A stretch of DNA of 12,382 nt. Source: Chlamydiota bacterium (lineage in GTDB: Bacteria; Auribacterota; Tritonobacteria; UBA1439). Shown in pieces: positions 2,036-10,028 of the stretch. Within the stretch, counting starts at the first letter, position 1. Every line of letters starts with the position of its first letter. The notes beneath the pieces are model-generated. The model made no database searches, had not been told where the DNA came from, and saw only the letters and a program-made list of their open reading frames with translations. Made by a program: the position numbers and the translations under genes. The stretch is taken from NCBI GenBank assembly GCA_037133055.1, contig JBAXOY010000092.1, forward strand, positions 1 through 12,382. Direction: 5' to 3'.

Positions 2036-5000
2036 CTAATCCGGTTTCTTCTTCGCCCGGCGAGCCTTCTCGTTCCACTTCTCGATTGAGTAAATCCCGT
2101 CGTAGAGCGCGTTCCCGACGTAGTACGTCGTCCCCCACGACACCGCATCCAAAGTGAGCCGCATGCCGCCGAAAAGATAGTTCACGTTGCTCACCACCCG
2201 CACGTCCGGATTCCCCGCGGGGTAAAGCAGGGCGTGGTCCATGTCGGAGAAGAGGTGCTCGATCCACTTGATGAGAAGGCTCATCCTGAAAAACACGCCC
2301 CTCCCCGCGAGCCCGGTCCAGCTCAGGAATATCGCCGAGGGAACCTCCCCGAGGGTAACCTCGGGGATCTGGAAGGCGAAGACGAGCTCGCGCACCCGCT
2401 CCTTCGGGTAGTGGTCGGGCAGCGCATCGTAGCCGGTGACGAGCTTTCTGATGCCGGAGCGGATCGGCCGTTTCTTGTCCCCCGGGTACGCGAGGTCATA
2501 GAGGTTGTCGAGATCGGTGAGCACCTCGCGATTCATGACGCCGAAGATGTCGGCCCCGATGACGTGGATATCCGTAGCCCGCTTATAGTCGTGACCCTTG
2601 TAGCGCGTGTCGGGCGCGAGGAACGCGGGTTTCTTCTCTCCGGCCCGGCGCTCGTATTCGGCGAGGATATCGGTCCGGTCGGCCTGGTCCGCGCTGTACG
2701 GGAGCTTCGCCATCAGCGCCTTCATCGACTCGCCGGGCTTTGCCGGCGCCCCTTCCCCCTCGGCCTTCAGGAAGCCCGCGAGGGGCTTGCCGTCGAGGGC
2801 CCCCTCGTCGTACGGGATGCTGAGGAGCGACAGCACGGTGGGCACGATATCGGCGGTCCGGACGGCGTTGGTGAGCACGACCCCATTCCTCACGTTAGGC
2901 CCGGCCACGAGGAACGGGATATGCGCCGTCTCGTACTGGAGATAGCCATGGGCTCCGGACGGCTTGCCGGACATCTCGTCGAGGGGTTCCAACGACCAGC
3001 CGGGAGCGGCGCAGAGCACCATGTCGGGGGAATACCTCTCCTCCCTTTCCGCAATCCTGCCGTCCCAGAAGAGGTGGTTCGCGACGGAGACGACCGCGTC
3101 AGGATACGCGCAGTATTTCGTCGCCTCGAGCCACTCCCGCTCGGAGTGGAATTCCCCCATCCACGCCGGATCGATCCCCGCCCTCAGGTAGCCGAACGGG
3201 TCGTTCGCGGACGATTCCTCGTAGCGGACCTCCCCCTCGGGAGAGCAGGAGATGTCCTTCACGGGGAGGTACCGGAACAGGTGCCGGGTGCTCTCCGCCG
3301 TCTTCCGCTCGATCACCGCGCGGGTTCCGTCCTGGCCGAAGACCGCGACGCGGTCCCCGTCGAGCTTCACGAGCACCTGCCCGACGGGCCGGTTGCCGAC
3401 CTTGCCCGGGTAGAGGTTCTGCCCTTCGAGGTCCCATCCGAGGATCTTGTCGATCAGGTTCACCTCGCCGGCGACCCCGCCGACGCGGTAGCGCTCGAGC
3501 TGGCAGAGGGAGTTCCTGCGGAGCCACTCGCCCGAGTCGATGGAGGCATACGGGAGAAAGACGCTGCACTCCCCCTCGCCGTAGTCGAGGAACGCGAAAC
3601 GGTCCTTCCGCACGCCCTTCGTGAGGTACGCGTCGTCGTACCAGCGGACATCCACGCCGAGGCCCTTCCCCTTCTCATGGAACAGATCGCGGCCGAGGTT
3701 GACCTTCTGTATCACCCCGGTCTTCCCGCCCGCGGTGCCGTGGTCGGCGAGGAGGATCAGGTAGGTGCGGTCCCACATCTTCTTGCGCTTGAGCTCCGCG
3801 ACAATGGACGCGACATGCCGGTCGAGCGCGTAAAGCGCTCTCCTGCCGTGCCCGAACTGGGCGCGCGGGGAGTCGTGGCCGGCGGTGTCGAGCCCCGAAA
3901 ACCAGAAGTTCATCACGCGCGCGTCGGGCTGGACGACCATTTCGAGCCCGTAGCGGGTGTTGATTTCGTCGGCGTATTCCATGGCGTGGTGCATCTGAAA
4001 CGGCGGCACGACGGTGGAGCCGTCCACCTCGTAGCGGTTCGGCGGGGACATCGGGAGGGTCGGCTGGATGGTGGTGTAGTACTCCATGCCGGCCCCGCGG
4101 ACGTAGTCCTGGAGGAGGGGGACCTCGGCCTTCCGCTCCGCCGCGTTCTTCTCCCGTCCCCCGGGGACGAGGGCGCGGACGCCGCGTCTCATCGTGACCC
4201 CGAGATAGCGCAGGCCCGCCGGGCGCAGGGCGTCGGCGGCGACCGTCGCGCCGAACGGCTCGAGGTAAGTGTCCCCCTTCCGCCGCTTCCGGTCGAAGTA
4301 GTTATTCCCCTTGATCCCCGTGCGGTTGGTGAAGACGCCCGTGTACATCGTGGAGTTGCTCGCGAGCGTGCTGGAGGGAAAGCCGGTGAACGCGCTCGCG
4401 AAATCGGTCCCGTGGTCGAAGAAGAGTTCCTTGATCGTCGGGAGGTATCCCGCCCCGGCCATCTCGCGAAGGACGTCGTAGCGCAGGCCGTCCACGTAGA
4501 GGAGGACCACGTTCGCATCCTTCACGGGACGCCCCTCGGGAAGGTCGAGCGCGCGGTAGACAATATCGTCGGGCTCGGGCTCGCGCGCCTTCGCCGCGTC
4601 GCCGAGGGCGATATCCGCGGCGAACCCTCCCGTGTTGTCCGTGACATCGAAGTCGTTCACCCCCAGGTACAGCCTCCCGCCCGCGGGGGCCTTGGCGCGG
4701 TACTCGCGGCCGACGAGGAACGGCGCCCCGTCCGCGCCGATCCGGCCGATGAGGGCGTAGCACGGAGCGGGGCCCCGCTCCGCGGCGGGCAGTGGGAATG
4801 CCTTGTCCTTCACGACCGTGTCGTAGAGATAGGTTCCCTGCGGCCCGACGAGCCACTCGAAACTGTCGCGCCCCGCGAATTTCCAGTGCGAGATCTCCAT
4901 CTCGCCGGTTGCGCTGATCGCCAGCATCTCGCCGTCGGCGACGTCGACGCCGGTGTCGGTCCACGTCTGATTGCCCGGCACCTTCACCTCGGCTGCGGGG

Positions 5001-5074
5001 GACGGGATCGCGCCCACCCCGAGCGCGAACGCGCCGGCCATGATCAAGATCATGCAAACAGGTATGTGCTTCAT
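2036..5074 (-). CDS. Secreted alkaline-phosphatase-superfamily protein (type I phosphodiesterase/nucleotide pyrophosphatase) with an N-terminal LecA/PA-IL-like domain and an uncharacterised C-terminal region, 1012 aa
   Basis: Signal peptide MKHIPVC...AIPSPA-AE. N-domain WTDTG...ISATG...GPQG...ALIGRIG...PFLVG...LYLGVND...DNTG. Catalytic motifs VDGLRYD, FPSST (Thr nucleophile), LDTAGH, LADHG, GAHG and RTADIVPTVL...LDGKPL. SD GGAAGGA upstream. Confidence 0.85.
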   Translation of the reverse strand: MKHIPVCMILIMAGAFALGVGAIPSPAAEVKVPGNQTWTDTGVDVADGEMLAISATGEMEISHWKFAGRDSFEWLVGPQGTYLYDTVVKDKAFPLPAAERGPAPCYALIGRIGADGAPFLVGREYRAKAPAGGRLYLGVNDFDVTDNTGGFAADIALGDAAKAREPEPDDIVYRALDLPEGRPVKDANVVLLYVDGLRYDVLREMAGAGYLPTIKELFFDHGTDFASAFTGFPSSTLASNSTMYTGVFTNRTGIKGNNYFDRKRRKGDTYLEPFGATVAADALRPAGLRYLGVTMRRGVRALVPGGREKNAAERKAEVPLLQDYVRGAGMEYYTTIQPTLPMSPPNRYEVDGSTVVPPFQMHHAMEYADEINTRYGLEMVVQPDARVMNFWFSGLDTAGHDSPRAQFGHGRRALYALDRHVASIVAELKRKKMWDRTYLILLADHGTAGGKTGVIQKVNLGRDLFHEKGKGLGVDVRWYDDAYLTKGVRKDRFAFLDYGEGECSVFLPYASIDSGEWLRRNSLCQLERYRVGGVAGEVNLIDKILGWDLEGQNLYPGKVGNRPVGQVLVKLDGDRVAVFGQDGTRAVIERKTAESTRHLFRYLPVKDISCSPEGEVRYEESSANDPFGYLRAGIDPAWMGEFHSEREWLEATKYCAYPDAVVSVANHLFWDGRIAEREERYSPDMVLCAAPGWSLEPLDEMSGKPSGAHGYLQYETAHIPFLVAGPNVRNGVVLTNAVRTADIVPTVLSLLSIPYDEGALDGKPLAGFLKAEGEGAPAKPGESMKALMAKLPYSADQADRTDILAEYERRAGEKKPAFLAPDTRYKGHDYKRATDIHVIGADIFGVMNREVLTDLDNLYDLAYPGDKKRPIRSGIRKLVTGYDALPDHYPKERVRELVFAFQIPEVTLGEVPSAIFLSWTGLAGRGVFFRMSLLIKWIEHLFSDMDHALLYPAGNPDVRVVSNVNYLFGGMRLTLDAVSWGTTYYVGNALYDGIYSIEKWNEKARRAKKKPD

Positions 5075-5092: not shown

Positions 5093-5127
5093 GCTATCGA
5101 GCTATCGGGCTATCAAGCTATCGAGCT
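5093..5127. repeat. Tandem 8-mer GCTATCRR x4 plus a partial copy
   Basis: gctatcga gctatcgg gctatcaa gctatcga gct, read directly. Confidence 0.9.
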
Positions 5128-5171
5128 CTGTGGCTGCCACGCTCCCAAAATCCAGTTTCTTTTACCCCTTA

Positions 5172-5252: not shown

Positions 5253-6293
5253 TCACCGGTGGCCCATCTCCGCCTTCGGGCGCCGCATCATGAGCTCCCG
5301 CACCGCCCCTGCGGGGTCCTTGCCCCGGTAGAGTACCGCGTACACCTGTTCGGTGATCGGCATCTCGACCCCATGGCGGCGCGCCAGCCTCCACGCGGCC
5401 TTCGTGGTCCGTATCCCCTCCGCGACCATCTCCATGTGTGCGGTGATCTCCCCGAGGGTCTTTCCCTTTGCGATCAGTTCTCCCACCCTGCGGTTCCGCC
5501 CGTAGCGGCTCACGCAGGTCGTGATCAGGTCGCCGATCCCCGCAAGGCCCGAGAAGGTCTCCGGGGAGGCCCCCATGCTCACGCCGAGGCGCGCGATCTC
5601 GACGATCCCGCGCGTGATGAGGGCGGCCTTCGCGTTGTCGCCAAAGCCGAGGCCGTCGCAGGCCCCCGCGGCGATGGCGATCACATTCTTGATCGCGCCC
5701 GCGATCTCGACGCCGAGGAGGTCCGGGTTCGTGTAGACCCTGAATCGCTCCGTCATGAACAGACGCTGCGCCGCGAGGGGACGGGGGGCGTGCGCCGAGG
5801 ACGCGACCACCTGCGCGGGTATCTCCCGCGCGACCGCCGCCGCATGGCTCGGGCCCGAGAGCACGGCGACGCGCGCGCCAGGTATTTCCTGCCCGATCAC
5901 CTGGGACATCCGCAGCAGGGTATCAGTCTCGATCCCCTTCGAGCCGCTGATGATGAGCCGGTCCGCGGCGCCCCTGCCCCGGGAGATGAGGGGCGCGAGG
6001 CGCCCGCACACGTCCCGCACATGGTGCGAGGGCGCCGCGACGACGATCACCCCGCGGTCTCCGGCGGCCTCATCGAGACTCGCCGTGATCTTCAATCCCG
6101 CGGGAATGGCGACGCCCGGGAGGAATTTCCGGTTGACGCGCTTCCGTTTCAGGAACTCGACGTAGTCGGGGAAGACGCCCCAGAGCGCGACGTCCAGCCC
6201 CTTCTTGAAGAGGAGGATCGCCAGCGTGGTCCCCCACCCCCCGTCGCCGAGAACCGCGACCCTCGATGCCGCCGCCGGCATGGCGCGCTTCAT
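5253..6293 (-). CDS. gpsA: NAD(P)H-dependent glycerol-3-phosphate dehydrogenase, about 346 aa
   Basis: VAVLGDGGWGTTLA Rossmann motif, SKGIE, LSGPSHA, GAIKNVIAIAAG, GDNAKAALITRG, GIGDLITTC, RNRRVG and EGIRT. Start ATG 6293 overlaps the plsY stop (ATGA); ATG 6281 is an alternative. Confidence 0.96.
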   Translation of the reverse strand: MKRAMPAAASRVAVLGDGGWGTTLAILLFKKGLDVALWGVFPDYVEFLKRKRVNRKFLPGVAIPAGLKITASLDEAAGDRGVIVVAAPSHHVRDVCGRLAPLISRGRGAADRLIISGSKGIETDTLLRMSQVIGQEIPGARVAVLSGPSHAAAVAREIPAQVVASSAHAPRPLAAQRLFMTERFRVYTNPDLLGVEIAGAIKNVIAIAAGACDGLGFGDNAKAALITRGIVEIARLGVSMGASPETFSGLAGIGDLITTCVSRYGRNRRVGELIAKGKTLGEITAHMEMVAEGIRTTKAAWRLARRHGVEMPITEQVYAVLYRGKDPAGAVRELMMRRPKAEMGHR

Positions 6294-6919
6294 CCGTCCA
6301 CCCTCTCGGTCTTGCTTCCGATCTTCTTCTCCGTCCCGGCGATCAGGCGGGAGATGTTGGCGCGGTGCTTCAGAACAAGCGCGAGGGTGAGGACGACGGA
6401 AAACCATACATAGGCCGCGGGCGCATGGTAGGCCCACATGAAGATCGGGATCGAGATCCCGGCGAGGATCGAACCGAGAGAGACATAGCGTGTGAGCGCG
6501 ACGACCACCGCGAAGATGCCGAAGGCGGAGAAGATGACAAGCGGCGTCATCGCCAAAAACGCGCCCGCGGTGGTGGCGACCCCCTTTCCCCCGGTAAACC
6601 GTAAAAAGATCATCCAGTTGTGCCCCGACACCACCGCCACGCAGGCGAGAATCTTCCAGATGGGCAGATGGGCGTGGTCGAGGCACATGATCGGCGCGAG
6701 GAACCCCACCACGAGGTATCCCTTCAAGAGATCGATCGCGAGCGTGGCAATGCCCGCCCACGTCCCGAGCACGCGCATCACGTTCGTGGCGCCGACGTTG
6801 CCGCTCCCGTGCGTGCGGATGTCGATCCCCTTGAAAATCCGGCCCATGAGGTAGGCCGTGGGGATCGAGCCGGCGAGATACGCGGCGGCGCACAGTACGA
6901 CCAATCTGACAACGGTCAT
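6290..6919 (-). CDS. plsY: Glycerol-3-phosphate 1-O-acyltransferase (acyl-phosphate dependent), about 209 aa
   Basis: YLAGSIP, DIRTHGSGNVGATNVMR, DLLKG, GHNW, GGKGVATTAG, YVSLGS and KHRANISRL. Start ATG 6919 with SD AAGGGA. Confidence 0.96.
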   Translation of the reverse strand: MTVVRLVVLCAAAYLAGSIPTAYLMGRIFKGIDIRTHGSGNVGATNVMRVLGTWAGIATLAIDLLKGYLVVGFLAPIMCLDHAHLPIWKILACVAVVSGHNWMIFLRFTGGKGVATTAGAFLAMTPLVIFSAFGIFAVVVALTRYVSLGSILAGISIPIFMWAYHAPAAYVWFSVVLTLALVLKHRANISRLIAGTEKKIGSKTERVDG

Positions 6920-6944: not shown

Positions 6945-6973
6945 AGTATACACAAATACCCGCCCAATTGCAC
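6945..6973 (-). promoter_or_regulatory. Putative sigma70 promoter for plsY-gpsA
   Basis: Minus strand GTGCAA-17 nt-TATACT, 25 nt upstream of the plsY ATG. Confidence 0.55.
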
Positions 6974-7012: not shown

Positions 7013-7041
7013 TTGACGTAGTTACACTATGTATATACAGT
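7013..7041 (+). promoter_or_regulatory. Putative sigma70 promoter of brnTA with an overlapping palindromic operator TGTATATACA (7030-7039)
   Basis: TTGACG (7013-7018)-17 nt-TACAGT (7036-7041). The 10-bp perfect palindrome overlaps the -10 box, as expected for toxin-antitoxin autorepression. Confidence 0.7.
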
Positions 7042-7047
7042 ATTTTT

Positions 7048-7329
7048 GTGAAGTTCGAATGGGATGAGAAAAAGAACAGCGAGAACATCCGCAAACATGG
7101 GATTGATTTTCGGGATGTCGTCGAGATGTTCAGCCATCCCATGCTCGCCTCTCTCGACACGCGTCGTGAGTATGGTGAGGACCGATGGATCGGTATCGGC
7201 TTACTGAAAAACATCGTGGCGGTGACAGTCTATCTCGAGTGGGAAGATGAGGAGACCATCCGAATTATCTCCGCCCGGAAGGCAACACGTTATGAAGACC
7301 AGGAATATCATAAGAGAATCGCGGACTGA
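7048..7329 (+). CDS. brnT: BrnT family type II toxin (ribonuclease)
   Basis: MKFEWDEKKNSENIRKHGIDF...YGEDRWIGIG...IRIISARKA is the BrnT signature. GTG start. Confidence 0.93.
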   Translation: MKFEWDEKKNSENIRKHGIDFRDVVEMFSHPMLASLDTRREYGEDRWIGIGLLKNIVAVTVYLEWEDEETIRIISARKATRYEDQEYHKRIAD

Positions 7330-7576
7330 CTGGAATCGGCTGGATGGCATGCCCGATTCGGAAATCGATTTCTCCGAGGTTCCGAAGATGGGAACTTCCT
7401 TCTTCCGGCGTGCAAAACTGCGTATGCCGAAAAGAAAAACATCGGTTTCCATCCGGCTTGATGCCGATGTATTGAACTGGTTCAAGCGCAAAGGCAGGGG
7501 ATACCAGACCCGGATCAACGCCATCCTTCGCGCGTTTGTCGAAGCCCATCATGACGCTCGGGGACACTCTCGCTAA
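7292..7576 (+). CDS. brnA: BrnA family antitoxin (ribbon-helix-helix), about 94 aa
   Basis: TDWNRL...DSEIDFSEVP...KTSVSIRLDADVLNWFK..GRGYQTRINAILRAFV. Start ATG 7292 overlaps the 3' end of brnT. Confidence 0.92.
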   Translation: MKTRNIIRESRTDWNRLDGMPDSEIDFSEVPKMGTSFFRRAKLRMPKRKTSVSIRLDADVLNWFKRKGRGYQTRINAILRAFVEAHHDARGHSR

Positions 7577-7577
7577 C
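7558..7577 (+). repeat. 20-bp direct repeat, copy 1 (TCGGGGACACTCTCGCTAAC)
   Basis: Identical to 7839-7858; contains the brnA stop codon. Confidence 0.92.
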
Positions 7578-7590
7578 CCAGGCGGAAGGA

Positions 7591-7857
7591 ATGACCACGG
7601 AGAAATTCACGCTCACGTGTCCGCAGTGCGGCGGCACGAAGTTCAAGGCAACAACCGCGAAGCCCGGCCCCGACACCCCCCTGACCTGCGCCGGGTGCGG
7701 AACGTCCATCACACTGGGGGCGGTGAAGGAGCGCATCGAACAGAAAGCGCGGGCCGCGATCGAAGCATCGATGTCCGGAAACACTCCAGCCGACCCATTC
7801 CCGCGCGCGCCGACGAGATTAAAACGCTTCTTCGGTTTTCGGGGACACTCTCGCTAA
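7591..7857 (+). CDS. Small Zn-ribbon protein (CxxC...CxxC), resembling phage-associated ECs_2282-type zinc-binding proteins
   Basis: FTLTCPQCGG...LTCAGCGTSIT followed by a charged helix. SD-like GGAAGGA directly before the ATG. The family name is from recollection only. Confidence 0.65.
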   Translation: MTTEKFTLTCPQCGGTKFKATTAKPGPDTPLTCAGCGTSITLGAVKERIEQKARAAIEASMSGNTPADPFPRAPTRLKRFFGFRGHSR

Positions 7858-7858
7858 C
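7839..7858 (+). repeat. 20-bp direct repeat, copy 2 (TCGGGGACACTCTCGCTAAC)
   Basis: Identical to 7558-7577; contains the stop codon of the Zn-ribbon ORF. Confidence 0.92.
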
Positions 7859-7869
7859 ACGTTCCGGGG

Positions 7870-9171
7870 CTATTCCCGGCGGTTCTTGAACTTCAGGCGG
7901 AGGGGGGCGCCCTCGAAGCCGAAGGCGCGGCGGAGGGAGTTCGTGAGATAGCTCACGTACTGGTCTTCGACGAGGTCCCGGTTGTTCACGAAGAGGGCGA
8001 AGGCGGGGGGTCTCACCTTGGTCTGGGCGGCGTAGTAGAGCCGGCAGCGCTTTCCCTTCAGCGAGGCGGGAGGGGTCCGCTCCCATGCCTGGTGGAGGAG
8101 CTTGTTGAGGATCGGCGTCGCGATCTGCCGCTGGGTCTGCTCCCGGACGAGGAAGAGAGTGTCGAGCGACCGTTCGATGCCGCGCCCGAGCATCGCCGAG
8201 AGGAAGACCACCGGGACATAGTTGAAGAACCGCATTTTGTCCCAGAGCGCCTCCCGGCACCGGCGCATGTCCCCGTCGCGGACGAGGTCCCACTTGTTGA
8301 CGCCGAGGACGCACCCCCTGCCCTCGTCGAGGATGGAGCGCGCGAGTTTCTCGTCCTGCACCGTCACGCCCTCGAGGGCGTCCAGTATCATGAAGGCCAC
8401 GTCGCAGCGGATCACGCTGGCGCGCGTGCGCGTGAGGCTGTAGTAGTCCGCCGCCTCTTTCAGCTTCCCCTCCCGCCGGATACCCGCCGTATCGATCAGG
8501 GTGAGTCCCTTCCCCCGCCATGCCGCGCGCGTGTCCACCGCGTCCCGCGTCGTCCCCGGGACCTTGTCCACGATCATGCGCTCCTCGCGGAGGACGGCGT
8601 TCACCCACGAGGATTTCCCGACGTTCGGCCGGCCGACCACGGCGATCCGAAGCGTCTCCGACTCCTCTTCGTCCCCTCCCTCCGGGAGCGTCGCGAGGAC
8701 CGCTTCCAGGAGGGCATCCATCCCCCGCCCGTGGGAGGCGGAGACGGGATAGAGGCCGGGGAATCCGAGCCTGTGGAACTCGCCCGACGCGGCATCGAGC
8801 GCCTCGTTGTCCGCCTTGTTGGCGACGACGATGACGCGCTTCCCGGCATCGCGCAGCAGCGCGGCGATCTCCCGGTCAAGCGGCACAAGCCCCTCTATCG
8901 CGTCCGTGACGAGGAGGACGGTGTCGGCCTGCTCGATCGCGAGCTGCGCCTGACGCTTCGCCATCTCCCGTATGTTGTCGGAGATGTCGAAGTCGATCCC
9001 GCCCGTGTCCACGATGGTAAAGCGCCGCCCCTCCCACGTCACCTGTGCCGAGATCCGGTCGCGGGTCATCCCGTAGGTTGGGTCGACGATCGCGATCCGC
9101 TTCCCCGCGAGGCGGTTGAAGAGGGCCGATTTTCCGACGTTGGGTCTCCCGACCAGGGCGACGGTGCGCAT
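7870..9171 (-). CDS. der: Ribosome biogenesis GTPase Der (EngA)
   Basis: Two G-domains (GRPNVGKS/TRD/DTGG/NKAD and GRPNVGKSS/GTTRD/DTAG/NKWD) and a KH-like tail ending FGFEGAPLRL. Confidence 0.98.
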   Translation of the reverse strand: MRTVALVGRPNVGKSALFNRLAGKRIAIVDPTYGMTRDRISAQVTWEGRRFTIVDTGGIDFDISDNIREMAKRQAQLAIEQADTVLLVTDAIEGLVPLDREIAALLRDAGKRVIVVANKADNEALDAASGEFHRLGFPGLYPVSASHGRGMDALLEAVLATLPEGGDEEESETLRIAVVGRPNVGKSSWVNAVLREERMIVDKVPGTTRDAVDTRAAWRGKGLTLIDTAGIRREGKLKEAADYYSLTRTRASVIRCDVAFMILDALEGVTVQDEKLARSILDEGRGCVLGVNKWDLVRDGDMRRCREALWDKMRFFNYVPVVFLSAMLGRGIERSLDTLFLVREQTQRQIATPILNKLLHQAWERTPPASLKGKRCRLYYAAQTKVRPPAFALFVNNRDLVEDQYVSYLTNSLRRAFGFEGAPLRLKFKNRRE

Positions 9172-9173
9172 TG

Positions 9174-9201
9174 CAGGGTCCTGGGTTCAGGGTTCAGGGT
9201 G
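9174..9201. repeat. Tandem 7-mer CWGGGTB x4
   Basis: cagggtc ctgggtt cagggtt cagggtg. Confidence 0.85.
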
Positions 9202-9211
9202 AAAAGCTTTT

Positions 9212-9247
9212 GTTCAAGCGGTTCAAACAGTTCAAGCCGTTCAAGCA
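9212..9247. repeat. Tandem 9-mer GTTCAARCN x4
   Basis: gttcaagcg gttcaaaca gttcaagcc gttcaagca. Confidence 0.9.
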
Positions 9248-9278
9248 GCGAGAAGGATTCTTCGTTCCCTCCATACCT

Positions 9279-9308
9279 ATCCGCGTTTATCCGCGGCGAT
9301 CCGCGTCC
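9279..9308. repeat. Tandem 10-mer ATCCGCGnnn x3
   Basis: atccgcgttt atccgcggcg atccgcgtcc. Confidence 0.85.
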
Positions 9309-9325
9309 AAACTTGGATTCAGCGT

Positions 9326-9892
9326 TCAGGTCGCCGCTTTGGTCCCGGATTCATGGATCTGCCGGAGCCCGTCCAGCAGGTAGCCGATGCCCGAAACGAC
9401 CGTAAAAATGGACGCCGCGTAAAGAAAGACGGAGACATACCGCCAGCCGCACAGGACCCAGGTGACGGTGAGCATCTGGAGCGTGGTCGCGCACTTCCCC
9501 GCGGCGCTCGGCCGCGGCGTCAGTGAGCCGCAGAGCATGTGGACCAGGAGAGACCCGAGGACGATGAGGAGGTCCCGGCTGATCACGAGCACGGGGAACC
9601 AGCTCGGGAGTTTCGTCAGGCGCCCCATGTGGACGCTGAGGATGACCACCGCCGCGAGCAGCAGGAGCTTGTCGGCCAGCGGGTCGAGGTACGACCCGAG
9701 GAGGGTCTTCTGGTTCCTCATCCTCGCGATCATGCCGTCAAGCGCGTCGCTCGCCATCGCGGCGGCGAACGCGGCGACCGCCCACCAATGGAACGCCTCG
9801 GCGCCCGTCTCCCGGTAGCGCAGCAGCGCCGCCACGAAACAGGGGATCAGCGCGATCCGGATGAGCGTGATGAGATTGGGGAGATTCAGCAT
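9326..9892 (-). CDS. pgsA: CDP-alcohol phosphatidyltransferase (PgsA-like), about 188 aa
   Basis: NLPNLITLIRI and SDALDGMIAR...LGSYLDPLADKLL (DxxDGxxAR...GxxxDxxxD), SRD, GKCATTLQM. Start ATG 9892 with SD AAGGGG. Substrate (PGP versus cardiolipin-type) cannot be determined. Confidence 0.85.
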   Translation of the reverse strand: MLNLPNLITLIRIALIPCFVAALLRYRETGAEAFHWWAVAAFAAAMASDALDGMIARMRNQKTLLGSYLDPLADKLLLLAAVVILSVHMGRLTKLPSWFPVLVISRDLLIVLGSLLVHMLCGSLTPRPSAAGKCATTLQMLTVTWVLCGWRYVSVFLYAASIFTVVSGIGYLLDGLRQIHESGTKAAT

Positions 9893-9905: not shown

Positions 9906-10012
9906 GGGGTCAAATCTTTAATCTTGAATTTTTAACCCGTGCGGCATCGGATGTGGCGACCACCTGAGCCGGCAATAGGGAAAGGGACGGCCCGGCGGCA
10001 GAAAATTCAAGA

Positions 10013-10028
<16 letters not shown>
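9906..10028. mobile_element. 123-bp MITE/REPIN-like element with perfect 27-bp terminal inverted repeats
   Basis: GGGGTCAAATCTTTAATCTTGAATTTT (9906-9932) and its exact reverse complement (10002-10028) flank a 69-bp spacer. The arms are AT-rich in a GC-rich window. Mobility is inferred. Confidence 0.7.

What the first reader, a model, noticed from the sequence alone, without database searches (positions are those of the whole stretch)
7558..7858. Perfect 20-bp direct repeat ends two consecutive unrelated genes: a cassette-like 281-bp unit
Seen: TCGGGGACACTCTCGCTAAC occurs at 7558 and 7839. It is in the same reading frame in both genes, so brnA and the Zn-ribbon ORF both end ...RGHSR-TAA. One repeat plus the intervening DNA is a 281-bp unit holding exactly one SD and one ORF. 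Inference: the repeat could be a recombination or target site at which single-gene cassettes are stacked in tandem, with the site donating the stop codon. The TAAC end is reminiscent of integron cassettes, but there is no attC hairpin or integrase here. Excision between the repeats would leave brnA intact.
Basis: partly seen in the sequence, partly recalled or inferred. Interest (0 to 1): 0.72.

Follow-up and report, generated by a model that had tools for sequence, protein, structure and literature searches.

The report
Fossil transposon end, locally duplicated
The 20-base repeat is real and gives both genes their stop codon, but it is most likely a worn-down end of a known kind of small transposon, probably copied once when a zinc-finger gene was inserted, rather than the docking site of a new gene-cassette system.

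Summary
Observation confirmed: exact 20-mer at 7558 and 7839, only these two copies in the genome, spanned by contigs of two studies; homologues of both proteins lack the RGHSR tail. The repeat matches the terminal inverted repeat (GGGACACTCT-NNN-YAAC) of a Y1/RAYT-type transposase clade in related genomes: 24 hits in 79 phylum genomes against 0 controls, 21 within the class, four beside the transposase gene. The same ends give host genes GHSx* tails (recJ, ispG). This fits the published TIRtron consensus GGGGWSAS. Here the ends have lost their AT-rich tail, partner arm and cognate transposase, so they look fossil. The brnTA-Zn block is an insertion in the plsY-der gap; close kin show decay (brnT lost; brnTA and the start codon lost), never a clean excision or another cargo between repeats. 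Best reading: one end at the brnA stop, duplicated when the 261-bp Zn-finger segment came in. A class relative stacks three same-direction ends between Fic and CD-NTase genes, which keeps a docking-site reading open (about 0.15). The scan's notes held no look-alike of this sequence; they do hold cassette arrays with other repeats.

The parts
7558..7577 (+). Repeat copy 1: 3 flank bases plus the 17-nt core of a TIRtron-type end (7561-7577); supplies the last codons and the stop of brnA
   Evidence: family match 14 of 17 to the commonest G006 end
7839..7858 (+). Repeat copy 2; supplies the last codons and stop of the Zn-finger ORF; followed by AC as in several family ends; 11 nt from the der stop
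   Evidence: (best PWM hit of G000, but not above the reversed-PWM control)
7591..7857 (+). ECs_2282-family small CxxC-CxxC zinc-binding protein, 88 aa; distant homologues are 63-68 aa
7578..7838 (+). 261-bp segment between the copies; inferred to be the later insertion
   Evidence: sequence; inference
7292..7576 (+). brnA antitoxin, 94 aa (start by homology); most close homologues stop at 87-88 aa
7048..7329 (+). brnT ribonuclease toxin gene of a type II toxin-antitoxin pair; deleted in the X13 relative
7013..7041 (+). Sigma70-like promoter match ahead of brnT (9 of 12); similar stretch in G048 and G049 brnTA loci
6945..6952 (-). Conserved -10-like box ahead of plsY, present in all 6 syntenic relatives examined; inferred to let the junction tolerate insertions
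7870..9171 (-). der (EngA) GTPase, right flank, convergent on the inserted genes
6290..6919 (-). plsY glycerol-3-phosphate acyltransferase, left flank
9906..10028 (.). In-window parallel: two-armed miniature element of another TIRtron family (GGGGTCAAATC ends); its arm supplies the glnS stop (GSNL*)

Best explanation
The identical 20-mer that ends brnA and the zinc-finger gene is likely a decayed terminal inverted repeat of a TIRtron (a Y1/RAYT-type transposase element), probably inserted once at the brnA stop and then likely copied when the 261-bp zinc-finger segment was inserted at it. Shown: the repeat, its two-copy rarity, the insertion of the whole block into the plsY-der gap, the family of matching ends in related genomes, their position on both sides of a Y1 transposase gene, and their habit of supplying GHSx* tails to unrelated genes. 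Inferred steps: (1) brnTA entered the plsY-der gap; (2) a GGGACACTCT-type element inserted at the brnA stop and replaced it, since its CGG GGA CAC TCT NNN TAA frame holds a stop; (3) the element collapsed to one bare end; (4) the Zn-finger segment was added by a short-homology crossover or template switch at that end, leaving copy 1 with the old upstream neighbour (brnA) and copy 2 with the old downstream bases (AC, then der side); (5) the locus now decays by ordinary deletions. The tails are probably neutral by-products; the repeat is probably inactive because no cognate transposase is in the assembly.
For: Family: pattern GGGACACTCT-NNN-YAAC gives 24 hits in 7 of 79 phylum genomes, reversed control 0; 21 of 24 are in G000, G006, G007, G008. 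Transposase link: G007:C64 has a 219-aa Y1_Tnp gene between two inverted ends of this type; G008:C126 likewise, G006:C266 and G038:C101 have the downstream end; these proteins are 49-57% identical to the G007 one. Against 64 transposase-flanking termini collected without using the motif, the 20-mer matches 16 of 20 bases; 3 of 4000 random G000 20-mers do as well. Stop donation: recJ ends GHSS* (G007), ispG ends GHSL* (G006), an LDH ends RGHNT* beside a Y1 gene (G046); 16 further open frames in G000 end in GSNL*, GVRP* or GHSL*, 15 of them at such ends. The codon that varies among kin proteins (RGHSR, RGHSI, RGHSS) is the triplet that varies in the family. The family once lived in this lineage: behind the stop of an acyl-transferase gene, G006 has a full 165-bp two-armed element and G000 (54% identical gene) a collapsed 22-bp hairpin, one arm reading GGGACACTCTC like the repeat. 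For local copying: both copies share 3 flank bases (9 of 120 family pairs share 3 or more) and a CGC triplet seen in 0 of 16 family ends; both lack the AT-rich tail (GC 0.18-0.42 in the family, 0.58-0.62 here); G000 has other end-plus-flank local duplications (C17, 9 flank bases, 181 bp apart; C3, 10 bases, 39 bp apart).
Against: The match is diverged: PWM scores 19.7 and 14.8 bits against 26-34.5 for the training ends, and the reversed-PWM control reaches 20.5, so a genome-wide scan alone would not single it out. The family was found by searching with pieces of the repeat, and 5 of the 7 genomes that gave the termini for one search were chosen for holding related motifs. The predicted earlier state (brnA, one end, der) was not seen in any of 3 kin variants; the order of events rests on parsimony and on one 79%-identical BrnA with a DARGR* tail whose DNA I could not see. 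Y1 transposases are reported not to make long target duplications (PMC2817692, passage read), so step 4 needs host recombination. No end of this type was found in the two same-genus genomes.
Confidence: 0.55

Rival explanations
1. Same identity (TIRtron end), but two independent insertions of a lineage-specific element at the stops of two neighbouring genes, each later collapsed to a bare end.
For: Same-direction ends of the sister family lie around housekeeping genes in G047 (trp operon, 1520 bp apart), G049 and G051 (gene names there by eye); solitary ends are common in G006 and G008; these elements sit at gene ends throughout G000.
Against: Needs the same 3 flank bases, the same unseen triplet and two deletions ending within 2 nt of each other, with no third copy left in the genome.
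Confidence: 0.2
2. Solitary TIRtron ends act as reusable docking sites: the Y1 transposase nicks at the end and joins in circles of accessory genes, so toxin-antitoxin, Fic and defence genes are stacked between direct copies.
For: G008:C33 holds three same-direction ends separating a DncV-like CD-NTase, a Fic gene and a Fic plus unknown gene beside a glycosyltransferase. On the host operon's strand both loci run: host gene stop, inner side of the end, outer side, cargo. E. coli TnpA-REP cleaves and recombines BIMEs in vitro (PMC3333891, abstract). G006 has a 63-bp relic of another toxin-antitoxin pair at the same plsY-der gap.
Against: No empty site, circle or cargo swap seen. In G006 most solitary ends border housekeeping genes. 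BrnA-family gene ends carried such a motif in 3 of 29 loci against 5 of 96 control frame ends, p = 0.39 (loose motif, crude control). Cargo orientation differs between the two loci. The G006 junction has no end of this type.
Confidence: 0.14
3. A one-off duplication of ordinary sequence at an illegitimate insertion; the likeness to the transposon ends is chance.
For: Only two copies in G000; PWM score not above control; the 10-mer TCGGGGACAC occurs 19 times against 12 expected.
Against: p about 1e-3 against unbiased termini; class-restricted family with 0 control hits; same frame, same position at stops, same variable codon; collapsed relative at C8.
Confidence: 0.07
4. Remnants of integron cassettes: each gene ends in the RYYTAAC-like left box of an attC whose remainder was deleted.
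For: A brnTA relative in G045 lies among attC-like sequences (by eye); a Zn-finger homologue in L026 lies just upstream of an integrase N-terminal SAM_4 domain; G003 and G006 hold true integron integrases.
Against: 16 of the 20 shared bases lie upstream of TAAC; no hairpin; no IntI over cut-off and no attC in my simple scan of G000; TAAC is explained by the TIR family.
Confidence: 0.03

Closest known systems
TIRtrons / TIRYT (Di Nocera et al. 2013, PMC3733652, section 16 read; equated with TnpA-Y1 subclass 2.1 and RAYT group 1 in Quentin et al. 2018, PMC6006769, passages read)
   Same: GGGGACAC fits the published TIR consensus GGGGWSAS; in relatives the ends flank a Y1 transposase gene in inverted orientation and also occur as single and paired copies elsewhere.
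   Different: In the window the two ends are direct, tail-less and without transposase. The cognate transposases are short (about 220 aa); the TIRYTs placed in subclass 2.1 carry a C-terminal HTH. I found no paper on TIR ends bounding an inserted gene in direct repeat.
REP/RAYT (REPtron, REPIN) systems (Nunvar et al. 2010, PMC2817692, passages read; Ton-Hoang et al. 2012, PMC3333891, abstract)
   Same: Y1 transposase with flanking repeats; repeats at gene ends; REP termini are reported to supply stop codons to flanking ORFs (PMC3733652, passage read).
   Different: No GTAG head, no palindrome, two copies instead of hundreds.
Integron gene cassettes (IntI, attC)
   Same: One ORF per unit, stop inside a TAAC; relatives of both cargo genes occur near integron-like features.
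   Different: No attC fold, no IntI in G000, identity lies upstream of TAAC.
Integrative elements that duplicate a gene's 3' end (attL/attR; own knowledge)
   Same: About 20-bp direct repeat around inserted DNA that restores a gene end.
   Different: No integrase; the repeat is not the der terminus (it ends 11 nt outside the der stop) and is foreign to the BrnA family.

Membership tests
TIRtron terminal repeat | Contains the GGGGWSAS motif | tested here: met
   GGGGACAC at 7560-7567 and 7841-7848; consensus from PMC3733652 section 16
TIRtron terminal repeat | Same sequence family flanks a Y1 (PF01797) transposase gene as inverted repeats | tested here: met
   G007:C64 and G008:C126 on both sides; G006:C266 and G038:C101 on one side; the window copy is a diverged member (14 of 17)
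TIRtron terminal repeat | Dispersed single or paired copies away from the transposase | tested here: met
   10 in G006, 6 in G008, 3 in G007 (one of them probably coding), 2 plus a collapsed hairpin in G000
TIRtron (intact element at this locus) | Two inverted ends enclosing the transposase gene | tested here: not met
   Copies are direct; the enclosed gene is a Zn-finger ORF; best G000 match to the cognate protein is 39% and has other termini
TIRtron (TnpA-Y1 subclass 2.1) | C-terminal HTH extension and tree placement of the cognate transposase | tested here: inconclusive
   Pfam gave only Y1_Tnp on the 219-aa protein; no tree was built
TIRtron terminal repeat | Bound and cut by the cognate transposase | not testable with these tools
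   needs biochemistry
REP (GTAG family) | GTAG head plus GC-rich palindrome, high copy number | tested here: not met
   no fold; 2 copies
Integron cassette | attC hairpin with paired R and L boxes after the ORF | tested here: not met
Integron cassette | IntI in the genome | tested here: not met
   TIGR02249 under cut-off in G000 (92% complete); over cut-off in G003 and G006
Site-specific cassette array | Clean gain or loss of the unit between repeats, or other cargo between them | tested here: not met
   3 kin states seen, all ragged deletions; 8 runs of contigs without the 281-bp skip; small sample
BrnT-BrnA type II toxin-antitoxin | Overlapping brnT and brnA genes | tested here: met
   Pfam PF04365 and PF14384 over cut-off
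ECs_2282 zinc-binding family | NF047912 over cut-off | tested here: met
   47.8 bits against 37

The most novel reading that the evidence does not exclude
Solitary ends of TIR-flanked Y1 transposases serve as docking sites at which small accessory and defence genes (BrnTA, Zn finger, Fic, CD-NTase) are captured and stacked in direct repeat, an integron-like use of a domesticated HUH transposase; the window is a frozen two-unit example and G008:C33 a three-end array.
Probability: 0.15. Interest if true: 0.75.

Novelty: new member of a known kind. Interest (0 to 1): 0.27.

Why it matters
As best explained it is a small fossil: it shows how ends of TIRtron elements rewrite protein C-termini (GHSx*, GSNL*, GVRP* tails) and seed local duplications in this lineage, and it warns that shared tails on neighbouring genes need not mean a cassette machine. 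TIRtrons are barely studied (the word occurs in 1 paper of the library), so a class-specific end family with its cognate transposase clade is a usable test system. If the docking reading were true, it would give a function to a transposase group whose role is open and add a new route for stacking defence genes.

Tried and rejected
Generic repeat finder did not list the pair among its 20 largest families; found by script. Rfam: only a tRNA in the window. Folding of six stretches around the repeats: z-scores from -0.84 to 1.35, no hairpin. Viral contigs: 27 single hits of a 15-mer with unrelated flanks and no inverted partner, taken as chance; no Zn-finger relatives there. Plasmid and phage collections: no match to the insert. 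Half-attC idea from the X13 letters: the two similar G000 hits I inspected, of 6 pattern hits, were coding, and the X13 letters proved to be the end of an abundant MITE family. Idea that the repeat copies the der terminus, prompted by earlier notes on secA and mreB arrays: the repeat lies 11 nt outside the der stop; a short likeness to the G002 der stop region and after copy 1 was too weak to keep. Enrichment of such ends behind BrnA genes: not shown, p = 0.39. PWM scan of G000: not above control. ESM Atlas: only unnamed small proteins. Runs X9 and X16 held only small parts and were not used as evidence. The DNA around P0010, P0129 and P0130 could not be fetched, so their junctions are unknown. 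No structure prediction or tree was run. Supplements of the papers were not opened; the TIR list in Figure 9 of PMC3733652 was not visible, so an identical published end cannot be excluded.

Full report
Observation. The two 20-mers at 7558-7577 and 7839-7858 are identical and do not extend; chance expectation in the window is about 3e-4. They end brnA (Pfam) and an ECs_2282-family zinc-binding ORF (NCBIfam) in the same frame. There are no other copies within 2 mismatches in G000 or in 78 other phylum genomes. A contig from run X2 spans both copies without a difference, and none of 8 runs laid shows a joint that skips the 281 bp, so it is not a misassembly; contigs cannot exclude rare excision.

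The tails are foreign. Of 26 BrnA homologues aligned, only the two closest carry the tail or part of it (DARGHSI, DARGR); most end at 87-88 aa. Of 6 Zn-finger homologues, 5 are 63-68 aa and only the closest has GCRGHSS.

The block is an insertion in a busy gap. plsY and der are adjacent in 6 of the 7 family genomes; the gap is 89 bp in same-genus G001 and 191-892 bp in the others, filled with unrelated hairpins and repeats; G002 has another gene next to der. None of the six gaps holds the repeat; G006 holds a 63-bp relic, 87% identical to the junction of another toxin-antitoxin pair of G000. A -10-like box ahead of plsY is kept in all six, which may be why insertions are tolerated (inference).

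Close kin show decay, not exchange. L024, the only metagenome hit of the exact 20-mer, has plsY, a short hairpin, the Zn ORF without its ATG, one copy, der; an X19 contig shows the same junction letters and may not be independent. An 1160-bp contig of X13 lacks brnT, keeps brnA and the Zn ORF, and has 22 extra bases after copy 2 that match the end of a MITE family with 57 hits in G000. The clean state brnA, one copy, der was not seen, nor any other gene between two copies.

What the repeat is. Searching with the core found GGGACAC palindromes and ends in several phylum genomes, then CGGGGACAC-N6-TAA: 82 hits in 27 of 79 genomes against 13 for the reversed control. The narrower GGGACACTCT-NNN-YAAC gives 24 hits in 7 of 79 genomes, control 0, 21 of them in G000, G006, G007 and G008. 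In G007:C64 two such ends, inverted, enclose a 219-aa Y1_Tnp gene; G008:C126 is built alike, and G006:C266 and G038:C101 show the downstream end; these proteins are 49-57% identical to the G007 one, while the best G000 match is 39% and has other termini. The ends also occur as two-armed miniature elements and as solitary ends with an AT-rich tail. They supply stops to host genes: recJ GHSS*, ispG GHSL* and, in the sister family, an LDH RGHNT*. G000 shows the same with its GGGTCA-type families (52 ends), including glnS in this window. This is the TIRtron arrangement of Di Nocera et al. 2013, whose TIR consensus GGGGWSAS the repeat fits (PMC3733652, section 16 read); Quentin et al. 2018 equate most TIRYTs with subclass 2.1 (PMC6006769, passages).

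How sure is the match. Against 64 termini taken from 32 transposase loci as the longest flanking inverted repeat, without using the motif, the 20-mer matches 16 of 20 bases; 3 of 4000 random G000 20-mers do so; 5 of the 7 source genomes had been picked for related motifs. A PWM from 16 non-G000 ends ranks copy 2 first in G000 (19.7 bits) and copy 1 eighth (14.8), but the reversed PWM reaches 20.5 and the training ends score 26-34.5: the copies are diverged, and the PWM alone proves nothing. Independent support: the variable codon in kin proteins is the variable triplet of the family, and at an orthologous acyl-transferase stop G006 has a full element where G000 has a collapsed hairpin with an arm reading GGGACACTCTC. 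I put the identity at about 0.85-0.9.

Why two direct copies. Shared flank bases (3; 9 of 120 family pairs reach this), a shared triplet seen in 0 of 16 family ends, and loss of the tail at both copies are simplest if one collapsed end was duplicated as the Zn segment came in: copy 1 keeps the upstream neighbour, copy 2 the downstream AC. Two of 7 same-direction end pairs within 2 kb in G000 share 9-10 flank bases, so such local copying happens here. Independent insertion remains possible, as same-direction ends surround housekeeping genes in G047, G049 and G051. Y1 transposases are said not to make larger target duplications (PMC2817692, passages), so host short-homology recombination is the likelier agent (inference).

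The open, bolder reading. G008:C33 has three same-direction solitary ends between a DncV-like CD-NTase, two Fic genes and an unknown gene next to a glycosyltransferase, and E. coli TnpA-REP recombines BIMEs in vitro (PMC3333891, abstract). Against it: no exchange seen, most G006 solitary ends border housekeeping genes, and BrnA ends were not enriched for the motif (3 of 29 against 5 of 96, p = 0.39). Searches (listings only, except the papers named) showed no report of such docking; PMC5581495 and bioRxiv 10.1101/2021.07.10.451892 were read in passages and describe RAYT groups and repeat decay after transposase loss. The family name ECs_2282 gave no paper.

Verdict. A real repeat and a real small insertion, explained for the most part by a known class of element in a fossil state. 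Interest 0.27; docking reading about 0.15.

Noticed in passing
L277 (G008:C33:7500-14000), ends at 1157, 2637, 4962: Three same-direction solitary TIRtron ends separate a DncV-like CD-NTase, a Fic gene, and a Fic plus unknown gene, beside a GT2 gene: a possible stacked accessory array.
   Followed up: partly
L008:1304-1495 (G006 plsY-der gap): 63-bp relic, 87% identical to the antitoxin-toxin junction on G000:C168 (YefM-YoeB-like by recall, not scanned): another toxin-antitoxin pair once sat in the same gap.
   Followed up: partly
window 9906-10028: Two-armed miniature element with 27-nt perfect inverted ends matching the termini of the Y1 transposase on G000:C64; one arm supplies the glnS stop.
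   Followed up: yes
G000:C8:12305-12326 (L090:1501-1522): Collapsed 22-bp hairpin of the same end family supplies the stops of two convergent genes; G006 has the full element at the orthologous stop.
   Followed up: yes
G000:C17:11176-11387: A GGGTCA-type end plus 9 flank bases is duplicated 181 bp apart; the upstream copy lies in frame inside the 3' part of an open frame next to a Y1 transposase.
   Followed up: partly
G000, many contigs: Abundant MITE family, full copies about 250 bp, ends followed mostly by TA (30 of 57 hits), with many single-end remnants; parent transposase not sought.
   Followed up: partly
window 7042-7309, run X13: A close relative has lost brnT cleanly and keeps promoter and brnA: an orphan antitoxin.
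   Followed up: no
L069 (G006:C368) and L070 (G003:C61): Integron integrases over the TIGR02249 cut-off with long N-terminal extensions (open frames 428-434 aa) in two family genomes.
   Followed up: no
L026:2403-2964 and L036: A Zn-finger homologue sits directly upstream of an integrase N-terminal domain; a brnTA relative lies among attC-like sequences (by eye). Both cargo families may travel with integrons elsewhere.
   Followed up: partly
G000:C28:225-1000: Two GGGTCA-type miniature elements enclose one 170-aa ORF inside a small island bounded by a duplicated tRNA end.
   Followed up: no
window 5093-5140 and about 9171-9330: Short tandem repeats (8-mer x4 near 5100; 7-8-mer runs upstream of der) of the kind common at gene boundaries in this genome.
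   Followed up: no
window 2036-5074: 1012-aa ORF with a signal-like start and a split phosphodiesterase/alkaline-phosphatase-type domain (Pfam PF01663); the rest has no Pfam match.
   Followed up: no
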